A DNA stretch of 64,000 nt from Carcharhinus longimanus (lineage: Eukaryota): positions 32,122,347-32,186,346 of the forward strand of contig JASCQW010000139.1 of NCBI GenBank assembly GCA_030264375.1, read 5' to 3'. This document shows, in pieces, positions 2,901 to 64,000 of the stretch. Numbering within the stretch: position 1 is the stretch's first letter; each line of letters opens with the position of its first letter. Position numbers and translations under genes: made by a program. The notes under the pieces are model-generated. The model was given only the letters and a program-made list of their open reading frames with translations, did no database searches and was not told the DNA's origin.

Positions 2901-2957
2901 GAGCTCTTACAGACAAAACATACCATTCATACAGCACATAGGGGAGATGGAAAGGAT

Positions 2958-6321: not shown

Positions 6322-6344
6322 GTAAATGCTCATAGGCTGAAGCG

Positions 6345-6605
6345 CACACTCTCATGTACATATAGACAAATGTAGTTAGATAAAAGCACAGGCACTCATA
6401 TACAGACTCTCTCACACACACAAACATACATATATACAGATTCACACACATACACACATGCATGTATAGACACGCATGCTATACAAACATACAAATTCAC
6501 ACACATTTTATGCGTGCATATACAGACTTGCATACAGATTCACACACACATGCATGTATAGACACACATACAAATTCACACACACTTTATGCATGCATAT
6601 ACAGA
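6345..6605. repeat. CA/TA-rich degenerate simple repeat with internal duplication
   Basis: catacaaattcacacaca..ttatgc.tgcatatacaga occurs twice. Confidence 0.8.
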
Positions 6606-11241: not shown

Positions 11242-11472
11242 CAGGGTGTGGGTGCGGCCCATCAGGGCTCCGGGTGCGGCCCATCAGGGGTCCCGGTGCG
11301 GCCCAGCAGGGCTCCGGGTGCGGCCCAGCAGGGGTCCGGGTGCGGCCCATCAGGGGGCCGGGTGCGGCCCATCAGGGTGTGGGTGCGGCCCATCAGGGTG
11401 TGGGTGCGGCCCATCAGGGGTCTGGGTGCGGCCCATCAGGGCTCCGGGTGCGGCCCTTGAGGGTTCTGGGTG
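11242..11472. repeat. GC-rich minisatellite, about 21-23 bp unit (cagggNNccgggtgcggcccat)
   Basis: About 10 tandem copies directly after the 100-N gap. Confidence 0.9.
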
Positions 11473-12052
11473 CTGTCCCACAAGACATTTAGTTGACTGA
11501 TGCCCACATGCAGAGTTGCCACATTGGTGTTCACCCACATAGCATTTTTTCCTACCGGAATGACTAAAGTGATGTGATCGTAAAGCAAAGACACATGAGG
11601 TTTGTGCATTGACTGTGAGAGCCATGCATTCCCTCTGCCTCCAATCTAAGCATAAATATTTATTTGGTTTTTGCCATTTGATGACAGTTTTATTAATATA
11701 TAAATGCCTTAAGCATTTTCTCTAACTCCTTATGAAATATTTAATATGTATTCAATGTACCCAATCTTATTCATGGGGTCATGGTGAGTGAGCAAGTCTA
11801 ATTTCAATGTTGGAGAAGGGCTACTCAGGCAGCCCATCACTGTGTCCATGTGGGATGATTTTCACAATAGGATATCAATAGAGAAAGAAACATTAGAATA
11901 ATATAAGCCATATGACGGAAACAGCATCAACAGGTTTTTGATGCAGCTCTGACTCGGAAAATTGTAGCTTGCCAGGAGCTGTTGGACTGCGGTCACAGAG
12001 TCCCCAAATTACCTAACATTCCATTCTGATCCCCCCCTGCTCTTTCTTTCAG

Positions 12053-12258
12053 ATTCTGGTGGGAAAACAAAGGTGTTTTTACTGCCAGCCAGCAGCAGGC
12101 TCTGCAGCAAGTCTCACTCTCCAGGATAATCTGTGATAACACCAGAATTGAAGAACTCCCTCAGGATGCATTTGGGTTTAGACCATATCCGGAAGGGTAC
12201 GTCAGGTGCACTCACATTCCACAGGTAGACCTGAGTGCCTGGAAAGAGAACACAGAAG
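12053..12258 (+). CDS. Peroxidase gene A exon, end of catalytic domain
   Basis: ctttcag|ATTCTGG...GAAG|gtatgg, 206 bp. RFWWENKGVFTASQQQALQQVSLSRIICDNTRIEELPQDAFGFRPYPEGYVRCTHIPQVDLSAWKENTE. Confidence 0.95.
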
Positions 12259-12502
12259 GTATGGTATCCCGGTATGGAGTGATGTTTCTCTTGGTCTAAT
12301 CTGTACTGAGTGATGCTGTGCTGCAAGAATAAGTGTGAGGGAGGGGTTAGAGAATCCTCTCTGGATAGAGAACCCTCTTCTCACACTGACAGGAAGAGTG
12401 TTGGGGGGTGGGGGGAAAGTGACCAGGCAGCACCCTCTGCTGATCAGCTGTCTGACAGTTTAAATCTATTTCCATGTGCTTCAACATAAAACAGAAAGAA
12501 AT

Positions 12503-12660
12503 CCCACAACACCAGCTTAAAGTCCAACATGTTTATTTGTAACAAACGCCCCAAGCTTTCGGAATAGGCGGGTGGCTGGGAGTTCTCAGCCACAACTTCC
12601 CAGCCACCTGACAAAGGGACAGCCCGTTCCGAAAGCTTGGGGCGTTTGCTACAAATAAAC
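12503..12660. mobile_element. Penelope terminal repeats in inverted (hairpin) arrangement
   Basis: gtttatttgtaacaaacgccccaagctttcggaa ... ttccgaaagcttggggcgtttgctacaaataaac; same family as 8600-8739. Confidence 0.7.
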
Positions 12661-12699
12661 TTGAATGATGAGCATTATAGAAGGGCTGGTCTGCACAGA

Positions 12700-13212
12700 T
12701 TTGGCCAATTAGGCATCCAATGTTAGGAAGGATGACAAACCCTTGGAGAGGATGCAGAAAAGATTTACTAGATTGGTGTAAAGGACGTGAGCTTTCAGTT
12801 ATACAGAAAGACAAGACGAGCTGAGATTGCTCTGGTTAGAACAAAAAAAATTTGAAAGAAGGTTTAATAGGGGTGTTCAAAATCCAAGAAGGTTTGACAG
12901 AGCAAATAAAGCAACTGTTTCTAGTGGTAGAAAAATCTATCACCACAGGCTACAGATTTAAAGCCAAAGATGGGACAAGCATGATTTTGACAGCAAGAGT
13001 TATTACAACCTGGAATGCATTGCTTGAAAGGCTGTTGAAATAGATGCAATGGCAATTTTCAGAAGAGATTTAGACAAATACCTGAAGGAGAGAAAGTTGC
13101 AGAGATCTGGAGAAAGAGGAATGATTGGGATTAATTAGGTACCTTTCTTAAAGAGCTGGCACTAGCGATTTGGATTGAATGGCCTCCTTCCATACTGTAA
13201 GAAGCTATGATT
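12700..13212 (+). mobile_element. CR1-type LINE 3' fragment, old
   Basis: LERMQKRFTR-like start, TWNAL, tail gaatggcctccttc...ctatgatt. Confidence 0.7.
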
Positions 13213-13406
13213 CGACAAACAGTGATTAAGCTTTTCATTCAAACCTTTTTGACATAAATTTTGCAAAGGTGTACTTGCCCCTTGAAACTTATCTAAGTAC
13301 TTTAGTCTCCTGGGAATTTCAAAACCTTTATATTTTTAGGATCAGAAATGTGACATTGTGTTTGGACCCTAACTCTGGCTATTTATTATATGTATTTCCT
13401 TTACAG

Positions 13407-13568
13407 TGACCCCCTGCACCTCTGTCCCTATCGTCAACCATGCCCATTTCTCGATCTGTAACTCCTCGGTCAGGTATACCTGCAAGCCAGGATTCAAACT
13501 GGTGGGAGGAGATACGATAACCTGTTTAAGTAATGGACAGTGGAACTCTACATCACCGATCTGTACAG
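13407..13568 (+). CDS. Peroxidase gene A Sushi/CCP domain exon
   Basis: ttacag|TG...ACAG|gtaaaa, 162 bp, phase 1-1. VTPCTSVPIVNHAHFSICNSSVRYTCKPGFKLVGGDTITCLSNGQWNSTSPICT fits the CCP consensus C..YxC..GF.L.G...C...G.W....P.C. Confidence 0.93.
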
Positions 13569-14199
13569 GTAAAACAGAAGTGCAGTAACTTTGCAACACT
13601 GATAAAATGTTCATCTGTCTTTTGGTGATGCCAAATGGCATCACAAGCTTATTGAATAATTAGAAATCCATCTCTTTAATAAGAGAAACACAATACACAC
13701 CAGCTAATGACCTTCACACAATTAATTGCTTCTGAAATTAATTCTAATTAATGAAACTTCTCCACCATGATCTCGCACTAAGATGCAGGTTCAATCAAAA
13801 CAGGCTAATGGGAAATGAATGAACAGCAAATCTTTTGCATTCTAATTTTATTTATTAAATGTTGGTTTAGCCTCCTGCTTAAGATGGTGGGAGGAATTTT
13901 GCCTTTCCTTTTGGCAAAATGTCATCTTGGGCAGATAACATGGAGAATAGTTAATGGGTGGGTGGGGGTGNNNNNNNNNNNNNNGGGGATCAGGCATTGA
14001 ATGGGACTGGGTGAGTTCCACTCTGTGAGTGCACATATTGCAATGAAATCTCTCAAATTGAGTGTCTGCTTTCCTCTTCAGTCTCAAGACTAATTCTGAT
14101 GGTGACTGTCTCAGGATATTATAATTATGCTTAAGGCATATTTCCCTCTGACTGATGTTTCTAGTACAGAATTTTAAATCATGTTTCCAATTTTACAAG

Positions 14200-14243
14200 A
14201 CAGCGGGCCAGAGGGATTCATCGTGAAAGTATTTACACAGTGA
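14200..14243 (+). CDS. Candidate short terminal coding exon of gene A (DSGPEGFIVKVFTQ*)
   Basis: ttttacaag| acceptor, phase 1 open frame, start resembles gene B tail (EDSGSLEG), AATAAA at 14669-14674. Read-through of the Sushi exon (GKTEVQ*) or an acceptor at 14204 are alternatives. Confidence 0.3.
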
Positions 14244-14882
14244 CTGCAACAGCTCCTCCTCCACTGTCCATTCATTCTAACGTTTGATTTTATGCTGCAG
14301 ATGTTGCAACAAATGAAATATAATTCTTCACTGCTTGGACCTGAAAATAAGATCTTTTGATATGAATGCAAGGCTGTCAGGACCCACACTTCCATTGTAT
14401 TTTAGCACTACCCAGGTTTAAAGGTCAAGATCCCACATGCAACCTAGAACCAAACCACATCACCATTTGAGCACCAGATGCAACTTCCATCCAAACATTG
14501 CTGGTGTTCAGAGGCATTTTGGTGAGATTTTTGTTTATAGACTGGAAAATTGTGGAATGAATTGATGTGCTCACTGATGCCATGAGTGGAGAATCATTCT
14601 CCATCCAATATGCTGATTACACTTGACTACTGTTCTGAGATGCAATGTAACCCTGTTTCAGAATTAACAATAAAAGTGTCTGAAGCCATTACGTCAGTGC
14701 TGTTTGTTTGAAATGCAGAATTTCTATTTGTGTCAGCTTATTGGTGTGTAAATGTAATTATTCTGTAAACACATCCAAAGCTCTGCTGTCCATGCCCTTA
14801 CTTGTATCAAGTTCCTTTCACATACCAGTCCTGAGATCAGTAGCTTGCATTTGTTCCTGATTGAATGAACATTTTTAAAAAA

Positions 14883-15222
14883 TTCATTTGTGGGACGTGG
14901 GTGTCGCTGGTTAGCCAGCATTTATTGCCCATCCCTAGTTCCCTAAAGGCAGTTGAGAGTCAACCACATTGCTGTGGCTCTGGTGTCATATGTAGGCCAA
15001 ACCAGGTAAGGATGACAGATTTCCTTCCCTAAAGGACATTAGTGAACCAGATGAGTTTTTACCACGATCATTATCATCAGTAGATTGTTAATTCTAGCTT
15101 TTTTCTATTGAATTCAAATTCCACCATCTGCCATGGCGGGATTTGAACCCAGGTCCCCAGAACGTTAGCTGAGTTTCTGGATTAATAGTCTAGCAATAAT
15201 ACTGCTAAGTCATCGCCTCCCC
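14883..15222 (-). mobile_element. Second tRNA-derived SINE family (possibly DeuSINE/SacSINE-like)
   Basis: Reverse complement of 16718-16990 (ggcgatggcctagtggtattattgct...ttcgaatcc...tggtggaatttgaatt...atgtgactccag); another copy at about 32660-32990. Confidence 0.65.
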
Positions 15223-15274
15223 AGACCCAAAAATTCTTATTCTTGGTTCCAAATTCCTCCATTGCCTCATCTTG

Positions 15275-16000
15275 CTAGGGATCGTAGTTTGAGGATAAGG
15301 AGTAAACCTTTTAGAACTGAGATGAGGAGAAATTGAGGGTCCTTGTGCATGAGTCGCAAAAACCCAGCTTGCAGGTGCAGCAGGTGGTCAGGAAGGCTAA
15401 TGGGATGCTGGCNNNNNNNNNNNNNNNNNNNNNNNNNNNNNNNNNNNNNNNNNNNNNNNNNNNNNNNNNNNNNNNNNNNNNNNNNNNNNNNNNNNNNNNN
15501 NNNNNNNNNNNNNNNNNNNNNNNNNNNNNNNNNNNNNNNNNNNNNNNNNNNNNNNNNNNNNNNNNNNNNNNNNNNNNNNNNNNNNNNNNNNNNNNNNNNN
15601 NNNNNNNNNNNNNNNNNNNNNNNNNNNNNNNNNNNNNNNNNNNNNNNNNNNNNNNNNNNNNNNNNNNNNNNNGGGAGAGGGTGGGAATGTGGAACTGAGC
15701 CACAACAGATCAGCCATGATCTTATTGAATGGCGGGGCAGGCTCGAAGGACCAGATGGCCTACTCCTGCTCCAATTTCTTATGTTCTTATGAATGTGTGG
15801 AATTCACTACCACAGAAAGTAGTTGAGGTCAAAACATCGTCTGATTTCAGGAAGAAATTAGATATAGCTCTTGGGGCTAAAAGAATCAAGGGATATGGGG
15901 GTAAGGAGATTCAGGATATTGAATTCAATCAGCCATGATCAAAATGAATGGTGGAGTAAGCTCGAAGGGCCAAATGGCTATTCCTGTTTCTAGTTTCTGT
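15275..16000 (+). mobile_element. Nested CR1-type LINE fragments with assembly gap
   Basis: One CR1 (KANGML, gap, tail ...ttcttatgttcttatg) interrupts another (gagatgaggagaaatt ... aatgtgtggaattcactacc). Confidence 0.7.
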
Positions 16001-16322
16001 CTCATCCAGCTCTGCAACCTGCTGAGCTTTCCGCACTTATCCAATTCTACCCTGTTGAAAATTGCACAAAACATGCCTTGAATCTATACCAGTTGCCTTT
16101 TCAGAAGATATACTTCCCAAATATCACTCAGTATATCTTGAAATAACTTCAAAGACTTTACATCACATGTTCTGGACAATAGTTCCTCTGGACTGTTTCT
16201 AGGATTTATAGGTGTTTGATTTGTAGATTCAAATTGTCTTTAGGAATCAATTTCATTGCTCCGCTATTGGTGGCTGTGCCTTCAGCAGCCAAGGTCCCTC
16301 CATAAATCTCTCTGTCTCACTG

Positions 16323-16437
16323 GGGTGGGTTTTCCCATTCTGCCCACCATGGGTGAGGGGCAGACCATGGAAAGGTTCATTGACCTCGGGTGGGATTTTC
16401 TGGCTTCGGGGCGAGCACAGCAAGAAAATCCCACCCA
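16323..16437. mobile_element. Short MITE-like element with GGGTGGGWTTT terminal inverted repeats
   Basis: gggtgggttttc ... gaaaatcccaccc; internal cagaccatggaaagg..ttgac shared with 34135-34260. Similar ends at about 5360-5476, 32116-32330 and 51616-51743. Confidence 0.55.
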
Positions 16438-16717
16438 GTATCTTTCTTTCATCCTTATCGCTACTCTTAAAGCATATCTCTTTAATCAAGCTTTTGGCCA
16501 CCTGGCCCAATATGTATCTCAGCGTCACATATTGTTTTATGATGTCCTGTGAAGGATCCTATTATGTTAATGGTGTTATATGAATGCAAATTGTTGTAGC
16601 GAGACAGAGTGGAAGAGCTAGAAAGATACAAAATAAGTATCATTTTATGATTGTAGTAACGTTTGGCATATACTGATAAAAATAGTTTTTAATATCTGAC
16701 CAATACCAGTAGCTTTG

Positions 16718-16990
16718 AGGCGATGGCCTAGTGGTATTATTGCTAAACTATTCATCCAGAAACTCAGCTCATGTTCTGGGGACCCGCATTCGAATCCTGC
16801 CATGGCAGGTGGTGGAATTTGAATTTAATTAAAAAAATTATCTGGAATTAAGAATCTACTGACGACCATGAAAGCATTAGCCGATTGTCAGAAAATCCCA
16901 TCTGGTTCACTAATGTTCTCTAGGGAAGGAAATCTTCCATCCTTATCTGATCTGGCCTGCATGTGACTCCAGAGACACAGCAATGTATCC
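16718..16990 (+). mobile_element. Second tRNA-derived SINE family copy
   Basis: tRNA-like head tggcctagtgg ... ttcgaatcc; inverted partner at 14883-15222. Confidence 0.65.
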
Positions 16991-18659
16991 CAAAAATGAA
17001 TTTTACAAATGGCGGTTCTGATTCTTATGCACTGCCTTCTAATGATAGACCTGGCTAAACAGTCATCTTTTCAAAGCTAAATATTACATGTTAATGTTTG
17101 TGTGCACACTGATGTGGCTCAGATGCAATAAAGCAATTAGTTATTCAGACACAGCAAATCTTCTGCCCACTTTCCCTGTCCAACAGCAGAAAAAACCCTT
17201 ACTTGTCTCTGTCTCTGTTCACTCAGCATTTCAGATCTGTTGATCAATGGAGATGATTTTCCATGTGATTCTCCCTTTCCTCTACCATAATTCAGGTGAA
17301 ATTCCTGCCAAAGCTTTGGTATAAATATCATTCTACTCTTCTGCCTATGCCTATGGCAATTCTGCCCCGGGGATCTCCAGGGTGGTCATGCAACAGGCCA
17401 TGACACACTGGTAGAATTCTGGACTGCTGATGCTCCTTTGAAAGGGAATATGTTTTGTAGTGAATATTTCTGCTTTCCCTCACGTCCCCCGAGAAGCTCA
17501 CCTTTTATTACTCTCGATTCTATTGAGACCAGGCAGTGAATTGGCTCTACAGTCTCAGTTAAGGTGATCTCCATTTCTTTCAGAGTTGCTGTGTGTGGAG
17601 CTAGTCTGCATATATACAGACATGCCATTCAGGACAATGAGCTAGGGGCCTTTGGGGTCAGGATGGCAAGTGATCAATCCGCCTGGAAAAAGAAATGCCT
17701 TACATTTCGCCAAAAGAACCTCAGAGTCTCACTCTTTTCCCTTATTTACTATTTGGAACTTAAATTCCTGACACTCAGGATGATCCTTCTGCTGTCCTTG
17801 TTATCATCTCAGTGGCAGTAAAAATTGACCCAATTACTGCATGCCTACAACTGCACTCAGTGCTCTAGCAATAATATTTCCTCTTTAGATATATACTGTC
17901 TCTCTGCCAATATAACTAAATAACCTATGTTTTTTTTGGGTTCAGTCAAATACAATGCTGAACGTTTCATGGATTTACTAAATTATTAAAGAATGGAAAA
18001 TGCTTCAGTAACAATCCCTGGGCTACCACCTCTCCATTCCAGCCTAAAAACTTAATTGTTGGTTCCATCTGTTCCAAGTTTTTACATCAGTGATTTATCT
18101 AGTACCAGAATCCTATTATCCAGCTCCCCCGTAGCTATTAATCAATCATCAATGGGAAGCCTTGTCAAAATTCTTCCAGAACTCCAAAAAGTGTACAATC
18201 AAGTGGAACTCTTTGTCCATGCCAGTAATATCTTTGAAAGGTTCCAGCTAGTTAAATAACTGTGAGATTGCTCCCTTTCCTGAATCCATGCTCAGTTGCC
18301 CTTGCAGAAGTTATATTCCCCAAATGTCACCCGATATATCTTAAAATAAGTTCAAAGGCTTTACATCGCATGTTCTGTTCTTCCTGGGCTGTTCTTCGGA
18401 TTTGTGGGTGTTTTAATTTGTAGATTGAAATTGACGTAGGAGTCAATTTAATTTCTGATAAAGGTCAAGTAATTTAGTTTTCTCAGGGAATTCAAAATTA
18501 CTAGTGTTCAACTCATCAGCAAACAGAACTGAGTCAGATATAAATAATATCCCAACATTAATACTCGTAGCATTAATAAACTTCTTTTTACCAAATTGCT
18601 GATCATCTTTAGTTCAGGTTTCAATCAAGTTTCACATTCTGTGACTGACATTGAAACTC

Positions 18660-19010
18660 ACAGAATATTGAAATACCCAGACAGAGTGGATGTGGGGAAG
18701 ATGTTTGCATTAGTAGGGGAGATTAGGATCCGAGGGCACAGCCTCAGAGGAATAGGACGACCCTTTAGAATTGAGAAGAGGAGGAATTTCTTCAGCCAGA
18801 GAGTGATGAATCTATGGAATACAATGCCACAGAAAACTTTGCAGGCCAGGTCACTGAGCGCATTTAAGACCAAGATAGATAGGTTCTTGATAAAGGGATC
18901 AAGTGTTACGGGGAAAAAGTGGGAGAATGGGGACGAGAAACCTATCAGCCATGACTGGTAGGCAGAGCAGACTTGATGGGCCGAATGCTCTTAAACCTTA
19001 TGGTCTTGTA
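18660..19010 (+). mobile_element. CR1-type LINE 3' fragment
   Basis: RGHSLR...RRNFFSQRVMNLWN in ORF 18596-18961. Confidence 0.8.
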
Positions 19011-20443
19011 ACATTCAAATGCCGTGAAATTGAAAGAAATGTTTATTTATTGAGATCACATCTTAAAGTCTGTGCAAGTTTGTTTCCTCGTAGAAGTCTT
19101 GCAGATTAAATGAAAAGTATAATTAATGGCTGTTTTTAATTCATTCTTTTTTAAAACATCTGTCAAGCATGTATTTCTTGTTGTGCTCCTTTACTAGCTT
19201 TCAGATTACACAGGAGAATATAGTAGTCATCCACTCTATTATATTGTAATAAAGGATAATTATAGGTTCCATTGTGTACGATTCCACTCACAATGTTTAT
19301 GTAGGTACCGATTTGAACTCATAGACTTGTAGAATTGGGCTCTTGTGGAATCCGCCTTTTTTTTCTGTGAGAGTTAAACAAAAATATTGGGAGAATGCCA
19401 GAATCTGATCTTTGTATAATTATCTCCTTTGTTACTTACACATACGGTTAAGTCCTTTTCTGCTGTTCTTGGGTGTTTGCCAGTTGAGTGACGAGTATGA
19501 GAGTGAAGAGTTTGTACAGTGTAGATGTGGTATCTCAAAATTCAGGGGATGGAGGAGAAACGGGTACAAGAGAGGGAATGTTTTTTCACTGTCAGAGCGA
19601 GTAAAGTTCAGTGCTGGTATAATCACCATGCATTTGGTTAATGTCAGACAGAAAGAACTGCATCGGACACTATTTGGTTGCCGCTACTTTATTTTACTGA
19701 TTTGACACAAGCAAAGATAATCACAGCAAAAGAAGTGCCAGTGTTGTTCTGATTCGAGTATTGGAGCATTAGCTTGGAACAACTTGAAATAGCACACCAT
19801 AACAGTTTACTGAATTACAATAATGAATGTGATTGGTGAAAAGATCTTACATTTATTGCAATCTCCTGGACATCACATTGAATTGAATTTGCGGTCATTT
19901 ATTACAAAGGTATATGAAGCAGCCAATTTGTTCAGAACCAATTATCACCATCAGCAGATGAATTTATGTAAGTTGGATTCTATCGTTGTAATGATGGCAA
20001 AATTGTCAGTTTAACATGTAATTATCCATATGAAAACATATCTGAAAATGTAGCATTTCTGGTTACTGTATTCACGGAGTGCGATGTCCAGAAAGTCCAA
20101 AACTACAGTTGGATTGTAGTTGAGTTTTCTGCTTCAAGATTCACAAATAGGTCACAAACCATATGCGGCCCACCAAGGTTCTGAGTGAGGCCCACGGGAC
20201 ATTTTGTTGACTGTTGCCCACGCGCAGGATTGCCACATTCCACTGCTTCCTGGTATGACTAAAGTGATGTACACATAAAGCAAGTACAAAGACCGTAGAG
20301 AATGCAAAGTCTTACTCCAAACACTGCACCAGGGTTGGTAACACACATTGACTGTATTTTTATATTTACATCAAAGAATGATAAACTTCATCCCCTTTAT
20401 CCAGTGCTCACCTTCTCTTACTGCATTACCACAGTTATGAAAG

Positions 20444-20589
20444 TTAGGCTGTAGCACCATATCCTGAACCAAACGGGTTACTGTCCTTGAGAAAATCTGA
20501 ATCACCTGCATCTTCTTTGCATTCCGCTGATCCAGATTCACTTTTACCTCCTTTTGAGCCAGTTATTCCCTCCAAGCTTCCAGAATCTT
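20444..20589 (-). CDS. Probable last coding exon of gene B, Gly/Ser/acidic tail
   Basis: atattttcag| acceptor, phase 1 matching the Sushi exon. Open frame EDSGSLEGITGSKGGKSESGSAECKEDAGDSDFLKDSNPFGSGYGATA*; strong donor AAG|gtgag at 20412, 32 nt after the stop. Confidence 0.55.
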
Positions 20590-23008: not shown

Positions 23009-23134
23009 GTACAGCTAGGTGGATTTTGGCTCTTACCTGTACCGTTAGGTCATTTTAGACTCTTACCAGGACAGCTAGGTGGATTCAGACTCTTATCTGT
23101 ACAGCTAGGTGAATTCAGACTCTTACCTGTACAG
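23009..23134. repeat. 30-bp tandem repeat x4 spanning the gene B Sushi exon donor
   Basis: Units acagctaggtgRattcagactcttacctgt start at 23011, 23041, 23071 and 23101. Confidence 0.9.
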
Positions 23135-23288
23135 CGAGGAGGTGCAGAGTTCCACTGTCTGCCACTCAGACATTTTATTTCATCCCTTCCCTCCAGTTTG
23201 AATCCGGACTTGCAGGTGTACCTGACCGAAGATTTACAGATTGAGAAATGGGCGTGAGCGACAATGGGAGTAGAGCCACAGGGAGTCA
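23127..23288 (-). CDS. Peroxidase gene B Sushi/CCP domain exon
   Basis: tttacag|TG...ACAG|gtaaga, 162 bp. VTPCGSTPIVAHAHFSICKSSVRYTCKSGFKLEGRDEIKCLSGRQWNSAPPRCT; clear paralog of 13407-13568. Confidence 0.93.
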
Positions 23289-24594: not shown

Positions 24595-24800
24595 CATTAG
24601 TCTTCTCTTTCCAGGCACTAAGATCTAGGCGTGAAATGTGATTGCATCCGACATATCCTTTTGGGTACGACCTGTACCTAAACACATCCTGAGGGAGTTC
24701 TTTGATCCTGGTGTTATCGCAGATTAACCTGGAGATTGAGGTTTGCCAAAGGGCCTGTTGCTGGCTAGCAGTAAAAACCCCCTCATTTTCCCACCAGAAT
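24595..24800 (-). CDS. Peroxidase gene B exon, end of catalytic domain
   Basis: 206 bp, ag/gt bounded. RFWWENEGVFTASQQQALWQTSISRLICDNTRIKELPQDVFRYRSYPKGYVGCNHISRLDLSAWKEKTN. Confidence 0.96.
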
Positions 24801-27953: not shown

Positions 27954-28191
27954 CTGTCTCCATCTCTCAGGTTCTTGAATTGCTGCCCTATCAAGCAGGC
28001 AAACAAAGGGCCCACCCTACCACCTTCCACAAAGGGTTCGGAGATCCCCCCGACCCACACATCGATGTTGTCTGGAGTTCCATACAACTTGAGGAGATTC
28101 GTTGCTAGGTCCATACTGTTAAGGACGAGGGAAAGATCCAAAATATTTTGGGGCTCAGAAAGTCGACAGAACCTTCGCCAAGCATTGTAAC
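27954..28191 (-). CDS. Peroxidase gene B exon (YNAWRRFC...GDR)
   Basis: 238 bp, ag/gt bounded. [14 protein letters not shown]...[45 protein letters not shown]. Confidence 0.97.
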
Positions 28192-28809: not shown

Positions 28810-28980
28810 CTGGAAGCCCATGGTCTCGGGACCGCTGTATGTTGATGGCAGACAGGTCCAAGGCTATATGATTCTGTGTGGCAAACAGCTTCTCACGCAG
28901 TTCATCTGGCATCATGGAGCTTTGGGTCTGCAGTTTGCAAGGGCAACCAAGCAAGCCCCGAAAGACTGGATCAACTCCAC
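28810..28980 (-). CDS. Peroxidase gene B exon ([10 protein letters not shown])
   Basis: 171 bp, ttttag|GT...CCAG|gtaac. [58 protein letters not shown]. Confidence 0.96.
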
Positions 28981-30775: not shown

Positions 30776-31034
30776 CTTCCTCAATTAAATTCCATGGAGC
30801 AAAGAAGGTGTAGTGTAGGGGAATGCTGGAATACTTTGGGTCCTCCTGGTACTTTTCATTATAACGTTTCAGAATTGGCTGGATCGTGACATGCCCAAAG
30901 CGCATAGCGGCGGTAGTGAAGACATTGGAGAGTCTGGGATCAATTGACTCATTGTAGCCTTGGTATCGAGAAAGGTATTTCCCTGTTGCATCCTTACCAA
31001 TTATGTAGGGAACATAGTCCCTGTAAGTTATAAT
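30776..31034 (-). CDS. Peroxidase gene B exon (proximal His)
   Basis: 259 bp. IITYRDYVPYIIG...DPRLSNVFTTAAMRFGHVTIQP...FFAPWNLIEEG. Confidence 0.96.
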
Positions 31035-32374: not shown

Positions 32375-32535
32375 CTGTTGAAACGCTCCAATGATTTTCC
32401 TGGCTTCCTGGTAGATTGTTTCTCCGCTCCAGTGTGGGTTCAGTTTCTTCAGCTCTCTCGCTATGCGATTGTGTTCCCGTAGAAATAGTGTGTGAAAACT
32501 GAGCAGCCCCAGGTTTTCATTTGCACGGTTATCAC
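32375..32535 (-). CDS. Peroxidase gene B exon (distal Arg and heme-ester Glu)
   Basis: 161 bp. [54 protein letters not shown]. Confidence 0.96.
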
Positions 32536-36603: not shown

Positions 36604-36946
36604 CAGCTAACATACAGGGAACGCTTAGTCCAAAACAAGATGAGCTGTTGTGGGTCATAACACAAGAGTTCTTCTGGCTGGGGTTTCTGAAAGGCAGGTA
36701 TTTCAGGTTGTTGTCTGAAAAGGTGGGATTGACCATCAACAGGCCCTGGTCATTGGTGAGATCCCTGAGTTTCTTTGCCTGGCTCTTTGTATTGCCGTAA
36801 ATACTGCTGGCATCAATGAATGATGTCTGCATGTTGATCTGCTGGCATGCACTCAGGCCCTGAAACACTGAGTGGCACACGAGAGCTGATCGGATGAATG
36901 GTATGCACTGATGGGCATCTGTAATCCGTGTGTCGTCATCAGGTAC
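36604..36946 (-). CDS. Peroxidase gene B exon (Ca2+-binding loop TSFIDAS)
   Basis: 343 bp, cacag|GTA...CTG|gtaag. VPDDDTRITDAHQCIPFIRS...QINMQTSFIDASSIYG...VPCMLAG; inside ORF 36572-37009. Confidence 0.95.
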
Positions 36947-39900
36947 CTGTGGATGGAAGGTCAAGGCAGTGATGGAAGCAGCTATTGATAGGTCCACAGT
37001 GCAAAACAATCCTGCTCAGTCAGTGAGCATGGAAAACCAATAGTTCTCATGTTTTCTGAAGAAGTTTTTGCCATAAAATACATCAAGATTTATTTACTCT
37101 TTAATTGCCAGAAGAATGTGCCAAATGACTTGAGGATCTGTCCATTTTATAAAGGCAGATCTGGGGGAGCGATTCTCTCAAAAAAACTCCAAATGCCAAA
37201 CTTGCGTGAAAACTGAAGGAACTCCCGCTGATATTTTTAAGCGTGATTTTCAGAATGAATCTCCCACACTCTTTGCACTCCAGAGTGCCCGAACATCAAT
37301 GACTCTTAAAATCAGTGGGCGGTGCCTATTCCTGCTGGAGAAGCTGGCATCAAAGTGCTGAGTGAGCCAGTGTCAGAGCGGAGATTGGCACATGTGCAGT
37401 TGCCCTGCACTGTGGGCCTCCTGATTGCTGACCAACCCCGTGTGCCCCCATTTCTGTCCTTGCTGAACCCTCCTATCACTAGCCTCCCGGACCTATCCAT
37501 GCCAGCCTCGATGTCTCCACCTCCTCGATGCTCCATGGCCTCAGTTCCCTCCAGCAGTGTCAGCCTCCAGTTCCACATTCGTGGGGAGCTGGTATAAGCC
37601 CTGCTAGAGTGAACCACTCCTGGGCTGGGGGGATGGGCAGGAGATGCTAGTGGGCCCAGAGACTTCAGTCCCAGGCCTCCTAATGAAACTTAAATGAAAA
37701 TTTAAATATTTAAATTAGCTCTCCAGGAGCTGAATACTCTAAAAATCTTGGCCTGGAGACCATGGCTCCCAGTGGGGAGCCTGCTAAATGGTGTCCACTG
37801 ATGTCTCCACCACCACCCGCATCTCCCAGTCTAGTGGGGTAGCCAAGTGAGTGTTCCTGGGTCTCTGGACAGTAATTGGAAGTAATGGGCAGCACGATGG
37901 CACATTGGGCAGCACAATGGCACATTAGGCATCACGGTGGCATAGTGGTTAGCATTGCTGTCTCACAGCTCCAGGGGCCTGGGTTCAATTCTGGCCTTGG
38001 GTCACTGTCTGCTTGGAGTTTGCTCATTCTCCCCGTGAGTGTGTGGGTTTCCTCCCACAGCCCAACGATGTATAAGTTAGATGGATTGGCCATGCTAAAT
38101 TGCCCCTTAGTTATACATTCTAATATATGTTGGTTAGGTGAATTAGCCATGGGAAATGTGTGGAGTTATGGGGCTAGGGTGGGGGAGAGGGCCAGGGTAA
38201 GATTCTCTGTCAGAGAGTTGGTGCAGACCCAATGNNNNNNNNNNNNNNNNNNNNNNNNNNNNNNNNNNNNNNNNNNNNNNNNNNNNNNNNNNNNNNNNNN
38301 NNNNNNNNNNNNNNNNNNNNNNNNNNNNNNNNNNNNNNNNNNNNNNNNNNNNNNNNNNNNNNNNNNNNNNNNNNNNNNNNNNNNNNNNNNNNNNNNNNNN
38401 NNNNNNNNNNNNNNNNNNNNNNNNNNNNNNNNNNNNNNNNNNNNNNNNNNNNNNNNNNNNNNNNNNNNNNNNNNNNNNNNNNNNNNNNNNNNNNNNNNNN
38501 NNNNNNNNNNNNNNNNNNNNNNNNNNNNNNNNNNNNNNNNNNNNNNNNNNNNNNNNNNNNNNNNNNNNNNNNNNNNNNNNNNNNNNNNNNNNNNNNNNNN
38601 NNNNNNNNNNNNNNNNNNNNNNNNNNNNNNNNNNNNNNNNNNNNNNNNNNNNNNNNNNNNNNNNNNNNNNNNNNNNNNNNNNNNNNNNNNNNNNNNNNNN
38701 NNNNNNNNNNNNNNNNNNNNNNNNNNNNNNNNNNNNNNNNNNNNNNNNNNNNNNNNNNNNNNNNNNNNNNNNNNNNNNNNNNNNNNNNNNNNNNNNNNNN
38801 NNNNNNNNNNNNNNNNNNNNNNNNNNNNNNNNNNNNNNNNNNNNNNNNNNNNNNNNNNNNNNNNNNNNNNNNNNNNNNNNNNNNNNNNNNNNNNNNNNNN
38901 NNNNNNNNNNNNNNNNNNNNNNNNNNNNNNNNNNNNNNNNNNNNNNNNNNNNNNNNNNNNNNNNNNNNNNNNNNNNNNNNNNNNNNNNNNNNNNNNNNNN
39001 NNNNNNNNNNNNNNNNNNNNNNNNNNNNNNNNNNNNNNNNNNNNNNNNNNNNNNNNNNNNNNNNNNNNNNNNNNNNNNNNNNNNNNNNNNNNNNNNNNNN
39101 NNNNNNNNNNNNNNNNNNNNNNNNNNNNNNNNNNNNNNNNNNNNTTTATTTATTAGTCACGAGTAAAGCTTACATGAGCATTGCAATGAAGTTACTGTGA
39201 AATTCCCCTATTCGCCACAGTGCGGCGCCTGTTTGGGTCAATGCACCTAACCAGCACATCTTTCAGGGATGTACGTTAGAGGCTCACTCATGCACAGACA
39301 TATATCAGTCGCAGATTCCAGCTGTGAGAACCTGGATCAGTCTAGGATCCTCCTTGTTTCTAGATGCTGAAGGAGCCCTATGAGCCATTTATAACTTGGT
39401 GTAGCAACTCGTAAGATTGGAGCTTGGCTGAAATCCAGGAGAAATGCCGGACCAGTGAAGCTAGCCATCTATTAAAGACCTGCTACCAGCACCGACTGAG
39501 GTACAAACTTTGTAATCTCGGGGAACAGCAGCTCGTGAGACGATATTGAAACCCAGGAGATGTACATTCTGCATCAGAATGCTTTTGAGAGAATTCAAAG
39601 GCTAGAATTTCGAAAGTGATATGTTTGGTGTACCTCATTATCCTCCTCCATTGGAGTGGGNNNNNNNNNNNNNNNNNNNNNNNNNNNNNNNNNNNNNNNN
39701 NNNNNNNNNNNNNNNNNNNNNNNNNNNNNNNNNNNNNNNNNNNNNNNNNNNNNNNNNNNNNNNNNNNNNNNNNNNNNNNNNNNNNNNNNNNNNNNATATT
39801 TACATTAAAATCCATCTCACCTACACATCTTTGGAAACTAAAAGGCAATTTCGTATGACCAATGCACCTAACCAACACATCTTTTTGGACTGTGGAAGGA

Positions 39901-40612
39901 AACCGGAGCACCCAGAGGAAACCCACGCAGACAAGAGGAGAACATGCAGACTCTGCACAGACAGTGACCCAATCCAGGAATTGAACCTGGGTCCCCGGCG
40001 CTGTGAGGCAGCAGTGCTAACCACTGTGCCACCTTTCATTCAAAATAAACCCAGATCTGTTCAGTGTTGCTACCTATGATTTATCAAAATTAGTGTGAGC
40101 ACTGGACTAAAATAATTATAATTAATAATTTGAATTAAATGTACAGTTTCAATAGATGAGCTGCTGAGTATCTGTAGAATGTGACTCAGAGGTGATTTAA
40201 GAGGTGACCTACTTTGTTGGATCTGCTCACAGCGGCCAGCATAGCAGGATAAAAATATCCCACCTTTGCTGTGTTAAAAGTGAAGAGTTACTGTCTTTTT
40301 ACTGAAATCCAAACACATGGCCAGTAGCTGCCGTTAACATCCTCATCTTCAACATAGGAAGAAGAGGAAAATGCAAAGGATGAACAGCATGGAAATCTGC
40401 GTCCAGGGATGGGTTGATTTCTATGCAAGAAATTATCAGGATGTTTTTAGTTTCTTGCAATTGTTTTACAGAATATAAGGAAAAATCCTGTTTTAACAAG
40501 AATTAAGACACTGCACCTTACTTTGGATGGCCCGGCTTTGAGCTGAATGGACACCATAAAAATGCACTTTCAGCTCCCAAGCATGTCTTGAAATAGAGAA
40601 TCAATGCCTCAC

Positions 40613-40819
40613 CTTAATTGGGAAACAAGGAATTCTTTGCACACAAGACTTTTGACAGTTGATGCCATTTCTGAAGGTCTCAGTGTTGTGAGATGGACGA
40701 ATTAAACTGATATCATGAGTAATCCACTGCCCCCATTGCATAAACATCTGATTCCATTCGGAATCCGGAACTATATCCTTAACGGGTGCTTTCAGGATTT
40801 TGTTGGAAATCTCTCGGGC
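40613..40819 (-). CDS. Peroxidase gene B exon (distal His)
   Basis: 207 bp, tttcag|GCC...AAG|gtgag. AREISNKILKAPVKDIVPDSEWNQMFMQWGQWITHDISLIRPSHNTETFRNGINCQKSCVQRIPCFPIK. Confidence 0.96.
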
Positions 40820-44398: not shown

Positions 44399-44528
44399 CA
44401 GTGGCAGGGGGAATCCAGAATATAGCTTCCCTTCGAACCAGCCCTTTGGAAGTGAAAATCCATCCTCGTATTGAGCTGGGAGCCAGCGGACAAAAGGCAA
44501 GTTAGTTGCCCCCAGGTGAGGGGTCCTC
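44399..44528 (-). CDS. Peroxidase gene B exon (RWLPAQYEDG)
   Basis: 130 bp, ttccag|G...CTG|gtaac. RRTPHLGATNLPFVRWLPAQYEDGFSLPKGWFEGKLYSGFPLPL. Confidence 0.95.
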
Positions 44529-48057: not shown

Positions 48058-48190
48058 CTGTTGTTGCAGTTGGAATTGATGTCTCTATATCGTTTGGACC
48101 AGCAGTCATTCTTGCAGACAGAGGGTTGGATTATTCTTGAACACTCTGGGGTGTGAGTCATGCTGCCCACATCAGTCAATGTTAAAAGAT
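48058..48190 (-). CDS. Peroxidase gene B exon (start of mature domain, CNNR)
   Basis: 133 bp, ccatag|AT...AG|gtacc. DLLTLTDVGSMTHTPECSRIIQPSVCKNDCWSKRYRDINSNCNNR. Confidence 0.93.
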
Positions 48191-57476: not shown

Positions 57477-57646
57477 CTGATATATTGAATGGCCATCGAT
57501 GATTCAGGTGTATGTGGTTTTTGATGAATCTCAATGCAGTCTCCACAGTATCAGCAGACTGCACTTTCCTGATTGCTGCAGTAAGCTGCTTGAAGGAGCT
57601 TAGGAGGTCTAAAGATGTTCGGGATGCTTTATTAATATTGTTTTCA
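57477..57646 (-). CDS. Peroxidase gene B propeptide exon
   Basis: 170 bp, tcaacag|T...TCAG|gtcag. ENNINKASRTSLDLLSSFKQLTAAIRKVQSADTVETALRFIKNHIHLNHRWPFNIS resembles the MPO propeptide (LLSYFKQP...RRPFNVT). Confidence 0.9.
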
Positions 57647-59899: not shown

Positions 59900-59993
59900 T
59901 CGTCTCTGAACTCTTTGTACAATTGATGGATCATTTTGAAAGCTTCCTGTGAAGTAGTTTGCTTGTACTCACTGCCCAGGGCTCCCTCAGAAT
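59900..59993 (-). CDS. Peroxidase gene B propeptide exon (MPO exon 2 equivalent)
   Basis: 94 bp, gtacag|AT...CGA|gtgagt. SEGALGSEYKQTTSQEAFKMIHQLYKEFRD resembles MPO EEAKQLVDKAYKERRE; its phase 2 end matches the next exon. Confidence 0.85.
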
Positions 59994-62134
59994 CTGTACA
60001 CAAAACAGGAACACAGCACTCAGTAAACTTGTGGAAAATTTAATTTAGATGATTTGTTCACAAGTTAATAACACAAGTGATGTCACAGCACAGATCATTT
60101 CGCTACTCAGGCGAGTTCAGTTCCTGCCAATTACCAGAAAGGGCGGGCAAAGTTGTTGGCGGTTTTAGGATGAATGAAGGTTATTAATACTGAAGAACAG
60201 TCCTCTTTTCAGCTCTTCCACATCTTACCTGAAGGACCTGCAATTCAGAATCTTTTGTCCACATTGTCAACAAAATCTATTGCGGCTTCTTGTCTCCCTT
60301 TACTGAAGGCTTCTCCTTTCAGTGACAGAAGTGCCCATCTTTCTCAGTTCCATTCTCACCTGATGTGGTGGGGATTCTGCCAGGAGCCTGTGCCTCACAT
60401 TCCTCCCAACCAATGCTGTGACCCTTTCCATTCCCCAATTCCCTCTGCTTACTTCATTCTCCATCATTCATTCAGCTACACACTCCTACCCAGCACCTAC
60501 CCACCCTCCCCGGCTCCCTGCTACTTTTTATTCATTCAAGAGATGTGGGCGGCATTGGCTCGGCCAGCATTCGTTGCTCATTCCTTATTGCCCTTGAGAA
60601 GGTTGTGGTGAGCTACCTCCTTGATAGTCCATGTGATGCAGGTGCACCCACCAGGCCATGTGATCAACAGGGGGCCTTGTGGATTGATCTGGCAAGAAGC
60701 TGAGCCAATCATTCCATGGGTCAAGGAGGGACAGGCAGTTGGAGCCATGGAGTTCAGCAGAGCAGTTGCATTGTAATCTCATCTGACCTTGTTGTATATA
60801 TATTATTCTTTATTTGGCAATAAGGCCTTTTATTGTTTAAAGCCACATTGTGTCACCTTCGGTATATTACAGAGGGGAATTTCTAGGTGGTGGAATTTCA
60901 TATCCCTTTCCCTTGTTTGCTCTCTTTCACTTGCTTCTCCCTCTTATACTTCCTTCTTTCCCTTCTCTTCTCTCTCCATATCAGTTCCATCTCAGTTTTC
61001 ATCTTCCATTTGAGTCCTCAGCTCCCCCATTCCATGCTCAGCATTAATGTGGCTCTCAGATAGATCTCTGCTCTGTAAAAGTTTAAAAATAAGTTTTAAA
61101 ATGCTTACGGTTTCCGTACCAATCATTCTAACCGATGAGGGAAAGAAATGTTTCATTTGGTTTCTCAGATTGTCGAACCCTGTAGTTGGAGTTTTGGGCC
61201 ATCCGTATAAACAAGCTTAATCATAGAATCAGAGAGGTCTACAGCACAGAAAAAGGCCCTTCGGCCCATCATGTTTGTGCCAGTCAACGACAAGCCACCC
61301 AACTATTCTACTCCCACTTTCCAGCACTTCGTCCAGAGCCTTGTATACCTTGGCATCTGACATATTCATGTTCCTATTTGTGTCAATTTTAACACAAGGA
61401 AATCCTTTGGTGAAATTTTCACTTGCGTCTTCACGGAATATTGTTTTTTGCAAAAAGTAAATGAAAAATGGAACAATTGAACATGCATGTACCTCGAAAC
61501 CGATTTCCCGGTTTAAAAATGGAGGTATTTTTCCAGCATGTAAAATACCTGCTGAGAATGAACTAAGTGTCAGACATTAACAATAAAAACTGGCAACAGA
61601 GAACATGGAATTCCCTCGCAGGCTGGGGCAGATCTTTTCTTTCTGGCTGTCAGCTCGTCAACTGGCACTAATTAATTCAAACCACTTCATTCACATAAAA
61701 TATTGGCAACAGTTCATGAAATACATACTTTCCAACATTCGAACACATCACCCACTGATGCGATTTTTCTCGAACTTTCTGCCATTCTGTTTTCTTTCCC
61801 CCCCACCGTAAGTGCTCATTTGTCATTGTTTTGAGGGGAAATCATTCTCTACATTTTCCTGCCCGGCGGTTTTGAGCAAGTGGCTAGAGGTCGTGTGGCG
61901 GAAGGCGGAAATGGAGGCACCTCTGTCAGGGTAGCTCCCTAAAGCCCATTGTACACTCATTTTTACATTACAGAGGAAAGGCAGACTACCGCCGCTCCGT
62001 TCTGTTCTCCCTTTCCACGTTCCCGGAAACACTGCAACTTAAATTTGAACACACTGTATTGCACAAAACTTAGATTTAAATCGTTGTGTATATCTAGGGT
62101 ATCAGAGTGCTGTATGCTGTAGATATATACATAC

Positions 62135-62217
62135 ACACGTATGACCCAAATGAACTAGTCATATCGGTCATTTCCCCCAACAAGAAACAAAGGAGGGCAG
62201 GGCAACAACAGGCTCAT
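62135..62217 (-). CDS. Candidate signal-peptide exon of gene B (appears frameshifted by +1 nt)
   Basis: ATG at 62217 reads MSLLLPCPPLFLVGGNDRYD*. Removing one C gives MSLLLPALLCFLLGEMTDMTSSFGSYV ending in phase 1 at a gtatgt donor, as the next exon requires. Confidence 0.4.
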
Positions 62218-62560
62218 GCAGTGCTCAGGAATGCCGCAGCAGCGACCAGACAGGAATTTCAAGCAGGGCCACCTCTGCAGTTTTGGGCTGTGAAGTGTGG
62301 GCTGCACAATGGGAGCCACAGCCTTCTGCTCAGGAGCACACAATCAGGTGCACGTATTGATGTCATTACAGAATTAGTATTCTTGGGCTGTCTGCTGTGG
62401 CGTATAGCCATCATATTTCATTCCTCAGACACAAAGAGAAGCATTTGAACAATTTCATATTGACTGAAGAAGGAGTTTGTTTACAATCTGAAAACTACAG
62501 CACAAAGGCACTTGGCACAATCTGATAGCAACACACAGACAAGAATGCAAATTCTGTCCC

Positions 62561-63322
62561 ATCTGATAAGTGACAAACAGCAACAGGGGTATACAGACTG
62601 ATAACTGACACACGGGAATATTAATGTACAGACTGATAACTGATGCACATTAAAAGGGATATACAGTTTAATAACTGATACACAGGAACAGGGATATACA
62701 GACTGATAACAGATACACAGGAACAGGGATATACAGACTGATGACAGATACACAGGAACAGGGATATACAGACTGATAACTGATGCACATCAACAGGGAT
62801 ATACAGTTTAATAACTGATGCACAGGACCAGAGACGTACAGACTGATAACTGATGCACATTAACAGGAATATACAGTTTAATACCTGACACACAGGAATA
62901 TTGATGTACAGACTGATAACTGACACACAGGAACAGGGATATACAGACTGATAACTGATACACAGGAATAGGGATATGCAGTTTAATAACTGATACACAG
63001 GAACAGGGACATACAGACTGATAACTGATACACAGGAACAGGGATATACAGACTGATAACTGATACACAGGAACAGGGATATACAGACTGATAACTGATG
63101 CACATCAGCAGGGATATACAGACTGATAACTGATGCACATCAGCAGGGATATACAGTTTAATGACTGATGCACAGGAACAGGGATGAACAGACTGATAAT
63201 TGATGCACAGGAATAGGGATGAACATGCTGATAACTGACGCACATAAACAGGGATATACAGTCTAATAACTGACACACAGGAGCAAGAATGTTCAGACTG
63301 ATAACTGACACACAGGAACAGG
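62561..63322. repeat. 35-bp minisatellite, about 22 copies
   Basis: Consensus gactgataactgatacacaggaacagggatataca; exact 35-bp spacing (62596, 62631, 62666 ... 63296). Confidence 0.95.
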
Positions 63323-63403
63323 AAAATGTGATCACTGGGGGATTCACTGGCCAGTTCCTGGTTCATAACTCAACTAATTACAACTGGCTTCTGCAAAGCA
63401 GCC

Positions 63404-63437
63404 TTTTAAATACTGCTGCCAACCAGAAAATGATTGG
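63404..63437 (-). promoter_or_regulatory. Possible CCAAT plus TATA-like core promoter of gene B
   Basis: Minus strand CCAAT (63437-63433) followed about 20 nt later by TATTTAAAA (63412-63404), pointing toward gene B. Motif evidence only. Confidence 0.25.
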
Positions 63438-64000
63438 GAACCCCAGCTGATTTTCTGTGGCACCAGCAGTGGTCATTGTTGTTCCTGTTGTAATATTTAC
63501 ATGTATCTATGATCAGGCAATCATGTAGCTTTAAGAGATGTAAGTGTAATGTCATACCACCTGTCATTGTTGTATAGCGATACTAGCCCTACCTTGAATA
63601 CCAGCCACCAGCTGCCACCATACCACGTTCTTGTGTTATCATGTAGCTCATCTCATGTGAACTCTGAGACAGAGTTCTTGCTGAGAACAAGTATCACAAA
63701 ATTCATTCATGAATATTTGCTGAATACAAGGGTTAACACTGGTTAACACTGCAGCCTCACTGCGCCAGGGACTCTGCTTTGACCCTGGCTGGGTAACTGT
63801 CTGTGTGGAGTCAGCACATTCTCCCCATGTTTGTGTGGGTTTCCTCTCCTATAGTCCAAAGATGTGCAGGTTAGGTGAATTGGCCATGTTAAATTGCCCC
63901 TAAGTATCCAAAGATATGTAGATTAGGGGAATTACCGCGATGAATGTGTGTGGTTACAGTGTTGGGGGAACGGGTTGGGTAAGATGCTCTGCTGGCATGT

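What the first reader, a model, noticed from the sequence alone, without database searches (positions are those of the whole stretch)
40712..40735. Gene B lacks the heme-ester aspartate: WGQWITHD instead of WGQxxDHD
Seen: codon ACT (Thr, 40718-40720) precedes the distal His. The distal Gln, His, Ca-ligand Asp, Arg, Glu (RANE) and proximal His (RFGH) are all intact. Known: the equivalent residue (MPO Asp94) forms one of two heme ester bonds and is conserved in MPO/EPX/LPO/TPO/PXDN. Asp to Thr needs at least two base changes, so a single read error is unlikely. Inference: an enzyme with at most one covalent heme link and altered redox potential or halide specificity.
Basis: partly seen in the sequence, partly recalled or inferred. 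Interest (0 to 1): 0.7.

Follow-up and report, generated by a model that had tools for sequence, protein, structure and literature searches.

The report
Shark peroxidase missing one heme anchor
Sharks and rays share a myeloperoxidase-like gene that lacks the aspartate which, in the human enzymes, forms one of two ester bonds fixing the heme to the protein, so it likely keeps a single bond and likely oxidises iodide and thiocyanate rather than bromide or chloride.

Summary
Confirmed, and wider than reported. WGQWITHD lies on the minus strand (40735-40712) and aligns without gaps to MPO WGQLLDHD, so Thr replaces Asp94. It is not a read error: 4 of 4 laid runs show no other letter at the codon. 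It is not a pseudogene: 13 exons splice into an open frame, 92.8% identical to a Mustelus protein; relatives' contigs join the exons; pN/pS is about 0.4. The loss marks a whole shark-and-ray orthogroup (100/100): 12 of 12 members listed carry Thr, Ser or Asn, while 43 of 43 other chondrichthyan proteins keep Asp. The ester Glu and the catalytic residues are invariant. The best reading is a single-ester haloperoxidase working like Dictyostelium DdPoxA (fast with iodide and thiocyanate, poor with bromide); its chemistry is untested. The loss is not unique: separate losses occur in coelacanth, birds, a crocodile and a loach, and in 16 of 133 motifs of distant relatives. Ten literature searches found no report of it, and the scan's notes held nothing similar. 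New variant of a known kind.

The parts
40712..40735 (-). Distal-side motif WGQWITHD: Gln91-, His95- and Ca-ligand Asp96-equivalents kept, Asp94 replaced by Thr
40718..40720 (-). Thr codon ACT at the heme-ester Asp position
40697..40699 (-). Arg at the MPO Pro101 position; Arg or Gln in 11 of 12 orthologs, Pro in 98% of 108 other proteins
40613..40819 (-). Exon carrying the distal His helix (69 codons, AG/GT)
   Evidence: spliced in contigs
59900..59993 (-). First exon found (propeptide); the signal-peptide exon upstream was not found
57477..57646 (-). Propeptide exon
48058..48190 (-). Exon: end of propeptide, start of catalytic domain
44399..44528 (-). Catalytic-domain exon
36604..36946 (-). 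Exon with the Ca-binding loop (QTSFIDAS) and two clade-specific cysteines
32375..32535 (-). Exon with distal Arg (32527-25), ester Glu (32518-16) and Asn at the MPO Met243 position (32515-13)
30776..31034 (-). Exon with proximal Arg/His (RFGH, His 30893-91)
28810..28980 (-). Exon with proximal Asn (28843-41) and Arg424-equivalent
27954..28191 (-). Catalytic-domain exon
24595..24800 (-). Last catalytic-domain exon
23127..23288 (-). Sushi (CCP) domain exon
20444..20589 (-). Last coding exon: low-confidence acidic tail and stop codon
662..13567 (+). Gene A, a convergently oriented paralog (3' part). Its distal-His exon lies outside the window (L004) and keeps Asp, an internal control

Best explanation
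Gene B is an intact member of a shark-and-ray orthogroup of myeloperoxidase-like heme peroxidases that lacks the ring-C ester aspartate, so it is predicted to anchor its heme through the conserved glutamate alone and likely works as an iodide/thiocyanate-preferring, low-potential peroxidase like Dictyostelium DdPoxA. SHOWN: the Asp is replaced; Gln91, His95, Arg239, Glu242, Arg333, His336, Asn421 and Arg424 equivalents are invariant in 12 of 12 orthologs; there is no sulfonium Met; the fold is MPO-like; spliced contigs exist in relatives; the sequence is under constraint. FROM ESTABLISHED CHEMISTRY: the ester needs a carboxylate, so Thr, Ser or Asn cannot form the ring-C ester. INFERRED: H2O2 forms compound I, the Glu ester forms autocatalytically, the Fe(III)/Fe(II) potential is lower than in two-ester enzymes, and compound I oxidises I- and SCN- quickly, Br- poorly and Cl- not at all, giving mild oxidants for defence. 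Secretion is inferred from the N-termini of orthologs. The gene likely arose by tandem duplication and lost Asp before sharks and rays split, likely through Asn (one base step, seen in Heptranchias), while neighbouring residues were remodelled.
For: Gapless alignment to MPO. Open 13-exon frame with AG/GT at every internal boundary. Orthogroup at 100/100 with the trait column masked. 12 of 12 members non-Asp against 43 of 43 other chondrichthyan proteins Asp. Catalytic residues invariant and no compensating acidic residue near the motif. Between matched species the orthologs are about as conserved as the Asp-keeping C1q-type paralog, e.g. 82.2 vs 82.9% and 77.7 vs 77.5%. pN/pS 0.42 from 24 N and 15 S changes, p=0.009 against neutrality. 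The model of the Mustelus ortholog matches proMPO, TM 0.93 by target. DdPoxA, with Ile at this site, has one Glu ester, E0' -0.276 V against -0.183 V for LPO, I-/SCN- rates above 1e8 and Br- 15 per M per s (PMC5787809). Fifteen clade-diagnostic columns, including the Pro101, Arg161, Phe332 and Leu420 equivalents, point to a remodelled pocket rather than one slip.
Against: No biochemistry exists for this protein. DdPoxA is only 29% identical and differs elsewhere, so its low potential may not be due to the missing ester alone. The site varies within the clade (T, S, N) and was lost several times elsewhere, which fits simple dispensability as well. In MPO and LPO crystals the Asp ester is the fully formed one and the Glu ester is partial (PMC5377774 and PMC5437232 passages), so the Glu ester here may be incomplete or absent. 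The Ca-ligand Asp is Glu in 3 of 12 orthologs. Gene A's orthologs are more conserved than gene B's. The tissue is unknown, the RNA status of the runs is a guess, and the signal exon was not found.
Confidence: 0.6

Rival explanations
1. Dispensable bond: the enzyme has one ester but behaves much like its two-ester paralogs, and the Asp was lost by relaxed constraint after duplication.
For: At least four separate losses among vertebrates sampled; one origin is rejected (AU p=0.004 with the coelacanth protein, 1e-9 with all). The bird clade is mixed, 8 non-Asp of 12. [quoted passage not shown] Recalled, not retrieved: LPO and MPO Asp mutants keep much of their activity.
Against: 43 of 43 other chondrichthyan proteins keep Asp. 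All 23 replacements in proteins with an intact distal His are N, S or T. Many neighbouring residues changed in the same clade. The 2023 EPO structure shows both esters fully formed.
Confidence: 0.22
2. Non-halide role: heme weakly or not covalently bound, with the enzyme doing one-electron oxidation of phenols or tyrosines (for example cross-linking of secreted matrix or egg-case material) through a reshaped channel.
For: Pro101, Pro151, Arg161, Phe332 and Arg370 equivalents are changed and two new cysteines appear in the clade. A peroxidase in elasmobranch egg-case tanning is recalled, not retrieved.
Against: The halide-associated Gln and the ester Glu are kept in 12 of 12 (role of Gln from PMC4420034 passages). 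No tissue data.
Confidence: 0.13
3. A different second link: the Thr or Ser hydroxyl, or another residue, bonds to the ring-C methyl instead.
For: Hydroxyl residues occupy the site in 11 of 12 orthologs.
Against: Asn in Heptranchias and in birds. Linking is initiated by oxidation of the carboxylate (PMC10679500 passage). The only two new acidic columns (636, 693) are far from the motif in sequence; their 3D position was not checked.
Confidence: 0.03
4. Pseudogene or assembly error.
For: The signal exon was not found; pN/pS is fairly high.
Against: Open frame over 806 codons; Thr confirmed in 4 of 4 runs; spliced contigs in 3 runs from 3 studies; orthologs across sharks and rays. The upstream stretches contain large assembly gaps.
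Confidence: 0.02

Closest known systems
Human MPO/EPO/LPO (family 1, chordata peroxidases; PDB 5MFA, 8OGI)
   Same: Fold (TM 0.93 to proMPO by target), about 50% identity, distal Gln/His/Arg, ester Glu, proximal His/Asn/Arg, Ca loop, core cysteines.
   Different: No ring-C ester Asp; no MPO sulfonium Met (Asn); C-terminal sushi domain; changed Pro101, Arg161, Phe332 and Leu420 equivalents; two extra cysteines; lower calculated pI than mammalian EPX (8.9 vs 10.3-10.8).
Dictyostelium DdPoxA (family 6; PDB 6ERC; PMC5787809)
   Same: Asp replaced, Glu and both catalytic triads kept; the characterised model of a single-ester peroxidase.
   Different: Ile rather than Thr/Ser/Asn; 29% identity; different Ca ligands and disulfides; an independent loss.
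Human peroxidasin 2 / Pxd2 group (PMC3533774)
   Same: Vertebrate protein that naturally lacks the Asp94 equivalent.
   Different: Pxd2 also lacks the distal Gln and varies at the proximal Asn, which gene B keeps; it has a multidomain peroxidasin architecture.
Database entries labelled 'eosinophil peroxidase-like / myeloperoxidase-like' in sharks and rays (e.g. XP_078081143.1, XP_041053177.1, XP_038669916.1)
   Same: These are the orthologs.
   Different: The source labels say nothing about the missing Asp; I found no characterisation of them.

Membership tests
Peroxidase-cyclooxygenase superfamily (animal heme peroxidase) | An_peroxidase domain PF03098 and fold | tested here: met
   Pfam E 6.6e-186 on the Mustelus ortholog, 1e-19 on a window exon; Foldseek top hit proMPO
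Peroxidase-cyclooxygenase superfamily (animal heme peroxidase) | Distal Gln, His, Arg and proximal His-Asn-Arg | tested here: met
   Present in the window and in 12 of 12 orthologs
Canonical two-ester family 1 peroxidase (LPO/EPO/TPO type) | Ester-forming Glu (R-x-x-E) | tested here: met
   RANE in the window; Glu in 12 of 12
Canonical two-ester family 1 peroxidase (LPO/EPO/TPO type) | Ester-forming Asp (G-Q-x-x-D-H-D) | tested here: not met
   Thr in the window; T/S/N in 12 of 12
Canonical two-ester family 1 peroxidase (LPO/EPO/TPO type) | Distal Ca site (Asp96 plus T-x-F-x-D-x-S loop) | tested here: met
   Met in gene B by sequence; Asp96 is Glu in 3 of 12 orthologs and the Phe is mostly Tyr
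Canonical two-ester family 1 peroxidase (LPO/EPO/TPO type) | Branches within vertebrate family 1 | tested here: met
   Nested among chondrichthyan paralogs, 92/95; no non-family-1 outgroup was in the tree
Canonical two-ester family 1 peroxidase (LPO/EPO/TPO type) | Covalent heme and halide oxidation measured | not testable with these tools
   Needs protein
Myeloperoxidase proper | Met243 sulfonium link | tested here: not met
   Asn in 12 of 12
DdPoxA-type single-ester peroxidase (works-like) | Asp replaced, Glu and triads kept | tested here: met
   compared
DdPoxA-type single-ester peroxidase (works-like) | One ester by mass spectrometry or crystal; low E0'; I-/SCN- far faster than Br- | not testable with these tools
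   Needs protein
Family 6 (peroxidockerin/DdPoxA lineage) | Closer to DdPoxA than to chordata peroxidases | tested here: not met
   29% vs about 50% identity; rank 36 vs rank 1

The most novel reading that the evidence does not exclude
Vertebrates have repeatedly retuned their halide-oxidising peroxidases by dropping one heme anchor. Sharks and rays have kept a dedicated single-ester enzyme with a remodelled distal pocket since before their split, specialised for iodide and thiocyanate beside two-ester sister genes in the same cluster. Coelacanth, birds, a crocodile and a loach reached the same state separately. [quoted passage not shown]
Probability: 0.45. Interest if true: 0.65.

Novelty: new variant of a known kind. 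Interest (0 to 1): 0.5.

Why it matters
The number of heme-protein bonds is the textbook explanation of which halide these enzymes can oxidise. [quoted passage not shown] Here are natural vertebrate family-1 proteins without the Asp, beside Asp-keeping paralogs about 57-60% identical. That gives a matched natural pair for testing the bond-number rule, far closer than an amoeba enzyme against a mammalian one, and independent repeats in birds and coelacanth. It also warns that the 'MPO-like/EPX-like' labels on shark genes hide enzymes with different predicted chemistry.

Tried and rejected
Read error: rejected. Pseudogene: rejected. One shared origin of all vertebrate Asp losses: rejected. A compensating acidic residue near the motif: none. 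Signal exon: not found in window 60001-64000 or the next 40 kb (L011-L014, 9,689 N); candidates MIPLSWF in L011 and five short hits were spurious. Expression: no holder is on record as RNA, so tissue and level are unknown; only splice joins were used. Run X14 covered none of the exons. pN/pS for organism B (4 N, 3 S, p=0.16) is uninformative because the table was cut. The AlphaFold model cannot test the pocket or the proposed new disulfide: no heme or coordinates are given, and pLDDT is below 50 at 237-250, 292-307 and 367-374. Recent gene conversion between genes A and B: not supported, the 4 of 13 exons with a DNA match are only 69-83% identical. No chimaera member of the clade appeared among the 120 listed proteins (120 of 1879 hits shown). 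The MPO Asp94 mutant paper was not held; searches for D94V and LPO Asp225 mutants gave nothing relevant. PMC2315650 passages had 0 hits for Asp94, covalent or fish; PMC7873122 had nothing relevant. The scan's earlier findings gave nothing that bears on this. No complex prediction was run.

Full report
1. The observation. The plus strand at 40712-40735 shows nothing of note. On the minus strand it reads WGQWITHD, with ACT at 40720-40718. The motif lies in a 207-nt exon, 40819-40613, flanked by AG and GT. That exon aligns without gaps over all 69 residues to human MPO, where the motif reads WGQLLDHD. Counting along the precursor alignment puts Thr on Asp260, mature Asp94, which PMC5437232 names as the ring-C ester residue (passages). 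A search of the own genome with this exon gave 10 matches from 15 candidates; the other 9 have Asp, codon GAT or GAC. Contigs of 4 runs from 4 studies list no other letter at the Thr codon; run X8 may be the source of this DNA, and the other three are coded as other organisms.

2. The gene. Thirteen exons between 59993 and 20444 have AG/GT at every internal boundary and splice into 806 open codons, 92.8% identical (746 of 804) to a Mustelus protein and 57-60% to two paralogs. The architecture is propeptide, An_peroxidase domain, one sushi domain and an acidic tail. The signal-peptide exon was not found in the window or the next 40 kb, which hold 9,689 N. Contigs in 3 of 4 runs laid (X1, X3, X4; three studies, two organisms) run exon to exon across this region; X14 covers no exon. 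These runs are only guessed to be RNA, but intron-free joins at the annotated boundaries are what a transcript gives. Gene B lies tail to tail with gene A and in a cluster with two more peroxidase exons on the same contig; all three neighbours keep Asp.

3. It is an orthogroup trait. Of 1879 homologs, the best 120 were listed. At this column 96 have Asp, 9 Asn, 8 Thr, 6 Ser and 1 Gly; the Gly protein has also lost the distal His. Among chondrichthyan proteins, 12 of 12 in gene B's group are non-Asp: Thr in Mustelus, Carcharodon, Scyliorhinus, Heterodontus, Chiloscyllium, Stegostoma and Rhincodon; Ser in Pristiophorus, Leucoraja, Mobula and Hypanus; Asn in Heptranchias. All 43 others keep Asp. 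Cetorhinus, from cluster members, also has Thr. In a 39-row tree (a hand-picked subset, trait residue masked) gene B and 9 orthologs form a clade at 100/100, sister at 89/87 to a paralog group that includes the chimaera protein; a 65-row quick tree agrees. The loss therefore predates the shark-ray split; the date, roughly 250-300 million years, is recalled and comes from no call. Asp to Thr takes two base changes, and Asn is one step from Asp, Thr and Ser, so a route through Asn is plausible (inference). Heptranchias branches first in the clade (80/92) and keeps several ancestral residues, which does not match the recalled species tree.

4. Constraint. Between matched species the orthologs are about as similar as the C1q-type paralogs (82.2 vs 82.9, 77.7 vs 77.5, 78.9 vs 77.4, 85.5 vs 80.1, 71.3 vs 69.8%) but less than gene A's orthologs (85.4, 83.2, 81.8, 90.8, 80.6%). 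Against organism A, I used 35 exonic rows of the 40 shown (320 in all; 5 intronic rows dropped) and 4 rows. These gave 24 non-synonymous and 15 synonymous changes, pN/pS 0.42, p=0.009 against neutrality. The count ignores transition bias and exon edges, so it is rough and probably low. It shows constraint, but of moderate strength.

5. The active site. Gln91, His95, Thr168, Asp172, Arg239, Glu242, Arg333, His336, Asn421 and Arg424 equivalents are invariant in the 12 orthologs aligned. Position 243 is Asn, so there is no sulfonium link. The Ca-ligand Asp96 is Glu in 3 of 12. Fifteen columns differ in the clade from a consensus of at least 80% among 108 other proteins. They include the equivalents of Pro101 (Arg or Gln), Pro151, Arg161 (Cys), Phe332 (Met), Arg370 and Leu420 (Ile), with MPO numbers read. 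The only new acidic columns are 636 and 693, far from the motif in sequence. A second new cysteine (373) co-occurs with the Arg161-to-Cys change, and both are Arg in Heptranchias: a candidate disulfide, untested. An AlphaFold model of the Mustelus ortholog (73-row alignment, mean pLDDT 75.6, pTM 0.80) matches proMPO best (E 6e-61, TM 0.93 by target). It has no heme and is unreliable just after the motif, so it confirms the fold only.

6. Mechanism. The two esters form by H2O2-driven oxidation of the Asp and Glu carboxylates (PMC10679500 passage). Without a carboxylate the ring-C ester cannot form, and the Glu ester is the only link available. The one characterised natural case, DdPoxA, has Ile here, one Glu ester, E0' -0.276 V against -0.183 V for LPO, rates above 1e8 with iodide and thiocyanate, 15 per M per s with bromide and none with chloride (PMC5787809, passages and whole Discussion). 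I commit to gene B working the same way (0.6). Against it: DdPoxA is 29% identical; in MPO and LPO crystals the Glu ester is the partial one; and the repeated losses below fit dispensability (0.22). A non-halide oxidase role (0.13), an alternative link (0.03) and a pseudogene (0.02) follow.

7. How unusual. Not unique. Asp is also replaced in one coelacanth protein (Thr), 8 of 12 members of a bird clade (Asn or Ser), a crocodile (Asn; alligator keeps Asp) and a loach (Ser). Forcing these into one clade with gene B is rejected (AU p=0.004 for coelacanth alone, 1e-9 for all). Among 150 distant representatives, 124 had a readable motif and 16 of 133 motifs were non-Asp. In print, the Asp is absent in DdPoxA and in the peroxidasin-2 group, which also lacks the distal Gln (PMC3533774 passages). 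[quoted passage not shown] Ten searches listed no paper on the loss in sharks, rays or birds. The library omits most subscription papers, the MPO Asp94 mutant paper was not held, and I read no supplements; alignment figures such as Fig. S1 of PMC5787809 could show such sequences. PMC9138014 and PMC5377774 were seen as passages; PMC2315650 and PMC7873122 as passages without relevant hits.

8. Verdict. A real, ancient and apparently undescribed single-ester variant of vertebrate family-1 peroxidases. It belongs to the superfamily, but is neither a canonical two-ester enzyme nor an MPO proper. It is predicted to work like DdPoxA. Interest 0.5: it contradicts a printed generalisation and offers a matched natural test of the bond-number rule, but a precedent exists, the loss recurs, and no function is measured.

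Noticed in passing
P0088, P0097, P0100, P0101, P0115, P0120, P0122, P0125, P0090: A bird/reptile peroxidase clade is mixed at the ester-Asp site: Asn or Ser in 8 of 12 bird proteins and Asn in a crocodile, with Asp in alligator, turtle and pigeons. The ester Glu is kept in all 12 bird proteins.
   Followed up: partly
P0044 (Latimeria) and P0094 (Misgurnus): Independent Asp losses. The loach protein also has Gln at the ester-Glu position, so it would have no ester at all.
   Followed up: partly
window 36604-36946 (-): Two clade-specific cysteines (P0001 positions 303 and 373) appear together and are both Arg in Heptranchias; a possible new disulfide.
   Followed up: partly
P0017, P0020, P0021: The Ca-ligand Asp after the distal His is Glu in Heptranchias, Mobula and Hypanus orthologs, and Asp in all 108 other proteins.
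   Followed up: no
window 6324-12050 (+): Gene A's exon matching gene B's 28191-27954 exon is not found in window 1-20000; an N gap lies at 11142-11241.
   Followed up: partly
L010 (G000:C139:32414708-32414884): A divergent fourth peroxidase exon in the cluster, at most 48% identical to the proteins fetched, shortened after the motif and with a stop just before the match; possibly a diverged gene or pseudogene.
   Followed up: no
L002 (G000:C132:90860577-90860783): Its exon is 91% identical to Mustelus P0026, whose record lists the same longest-contig length as the gene-B ortholog, yet here it lies on another contig: a translocation or a misplaced scaffold.
   Followed up: no
P0022, P0023, P0026, P0039 and others: The sister paralog group often carries a C-terminal C1q domain (PF00386) after the sushi domain; gene B has only a short acidic tail.
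   Followed up: no
window 38235-39795 and other N runs: The low GC at 38001-40000 is an artefact of assembly gaps; the window holds 1,684 N.
   Followed up: yes
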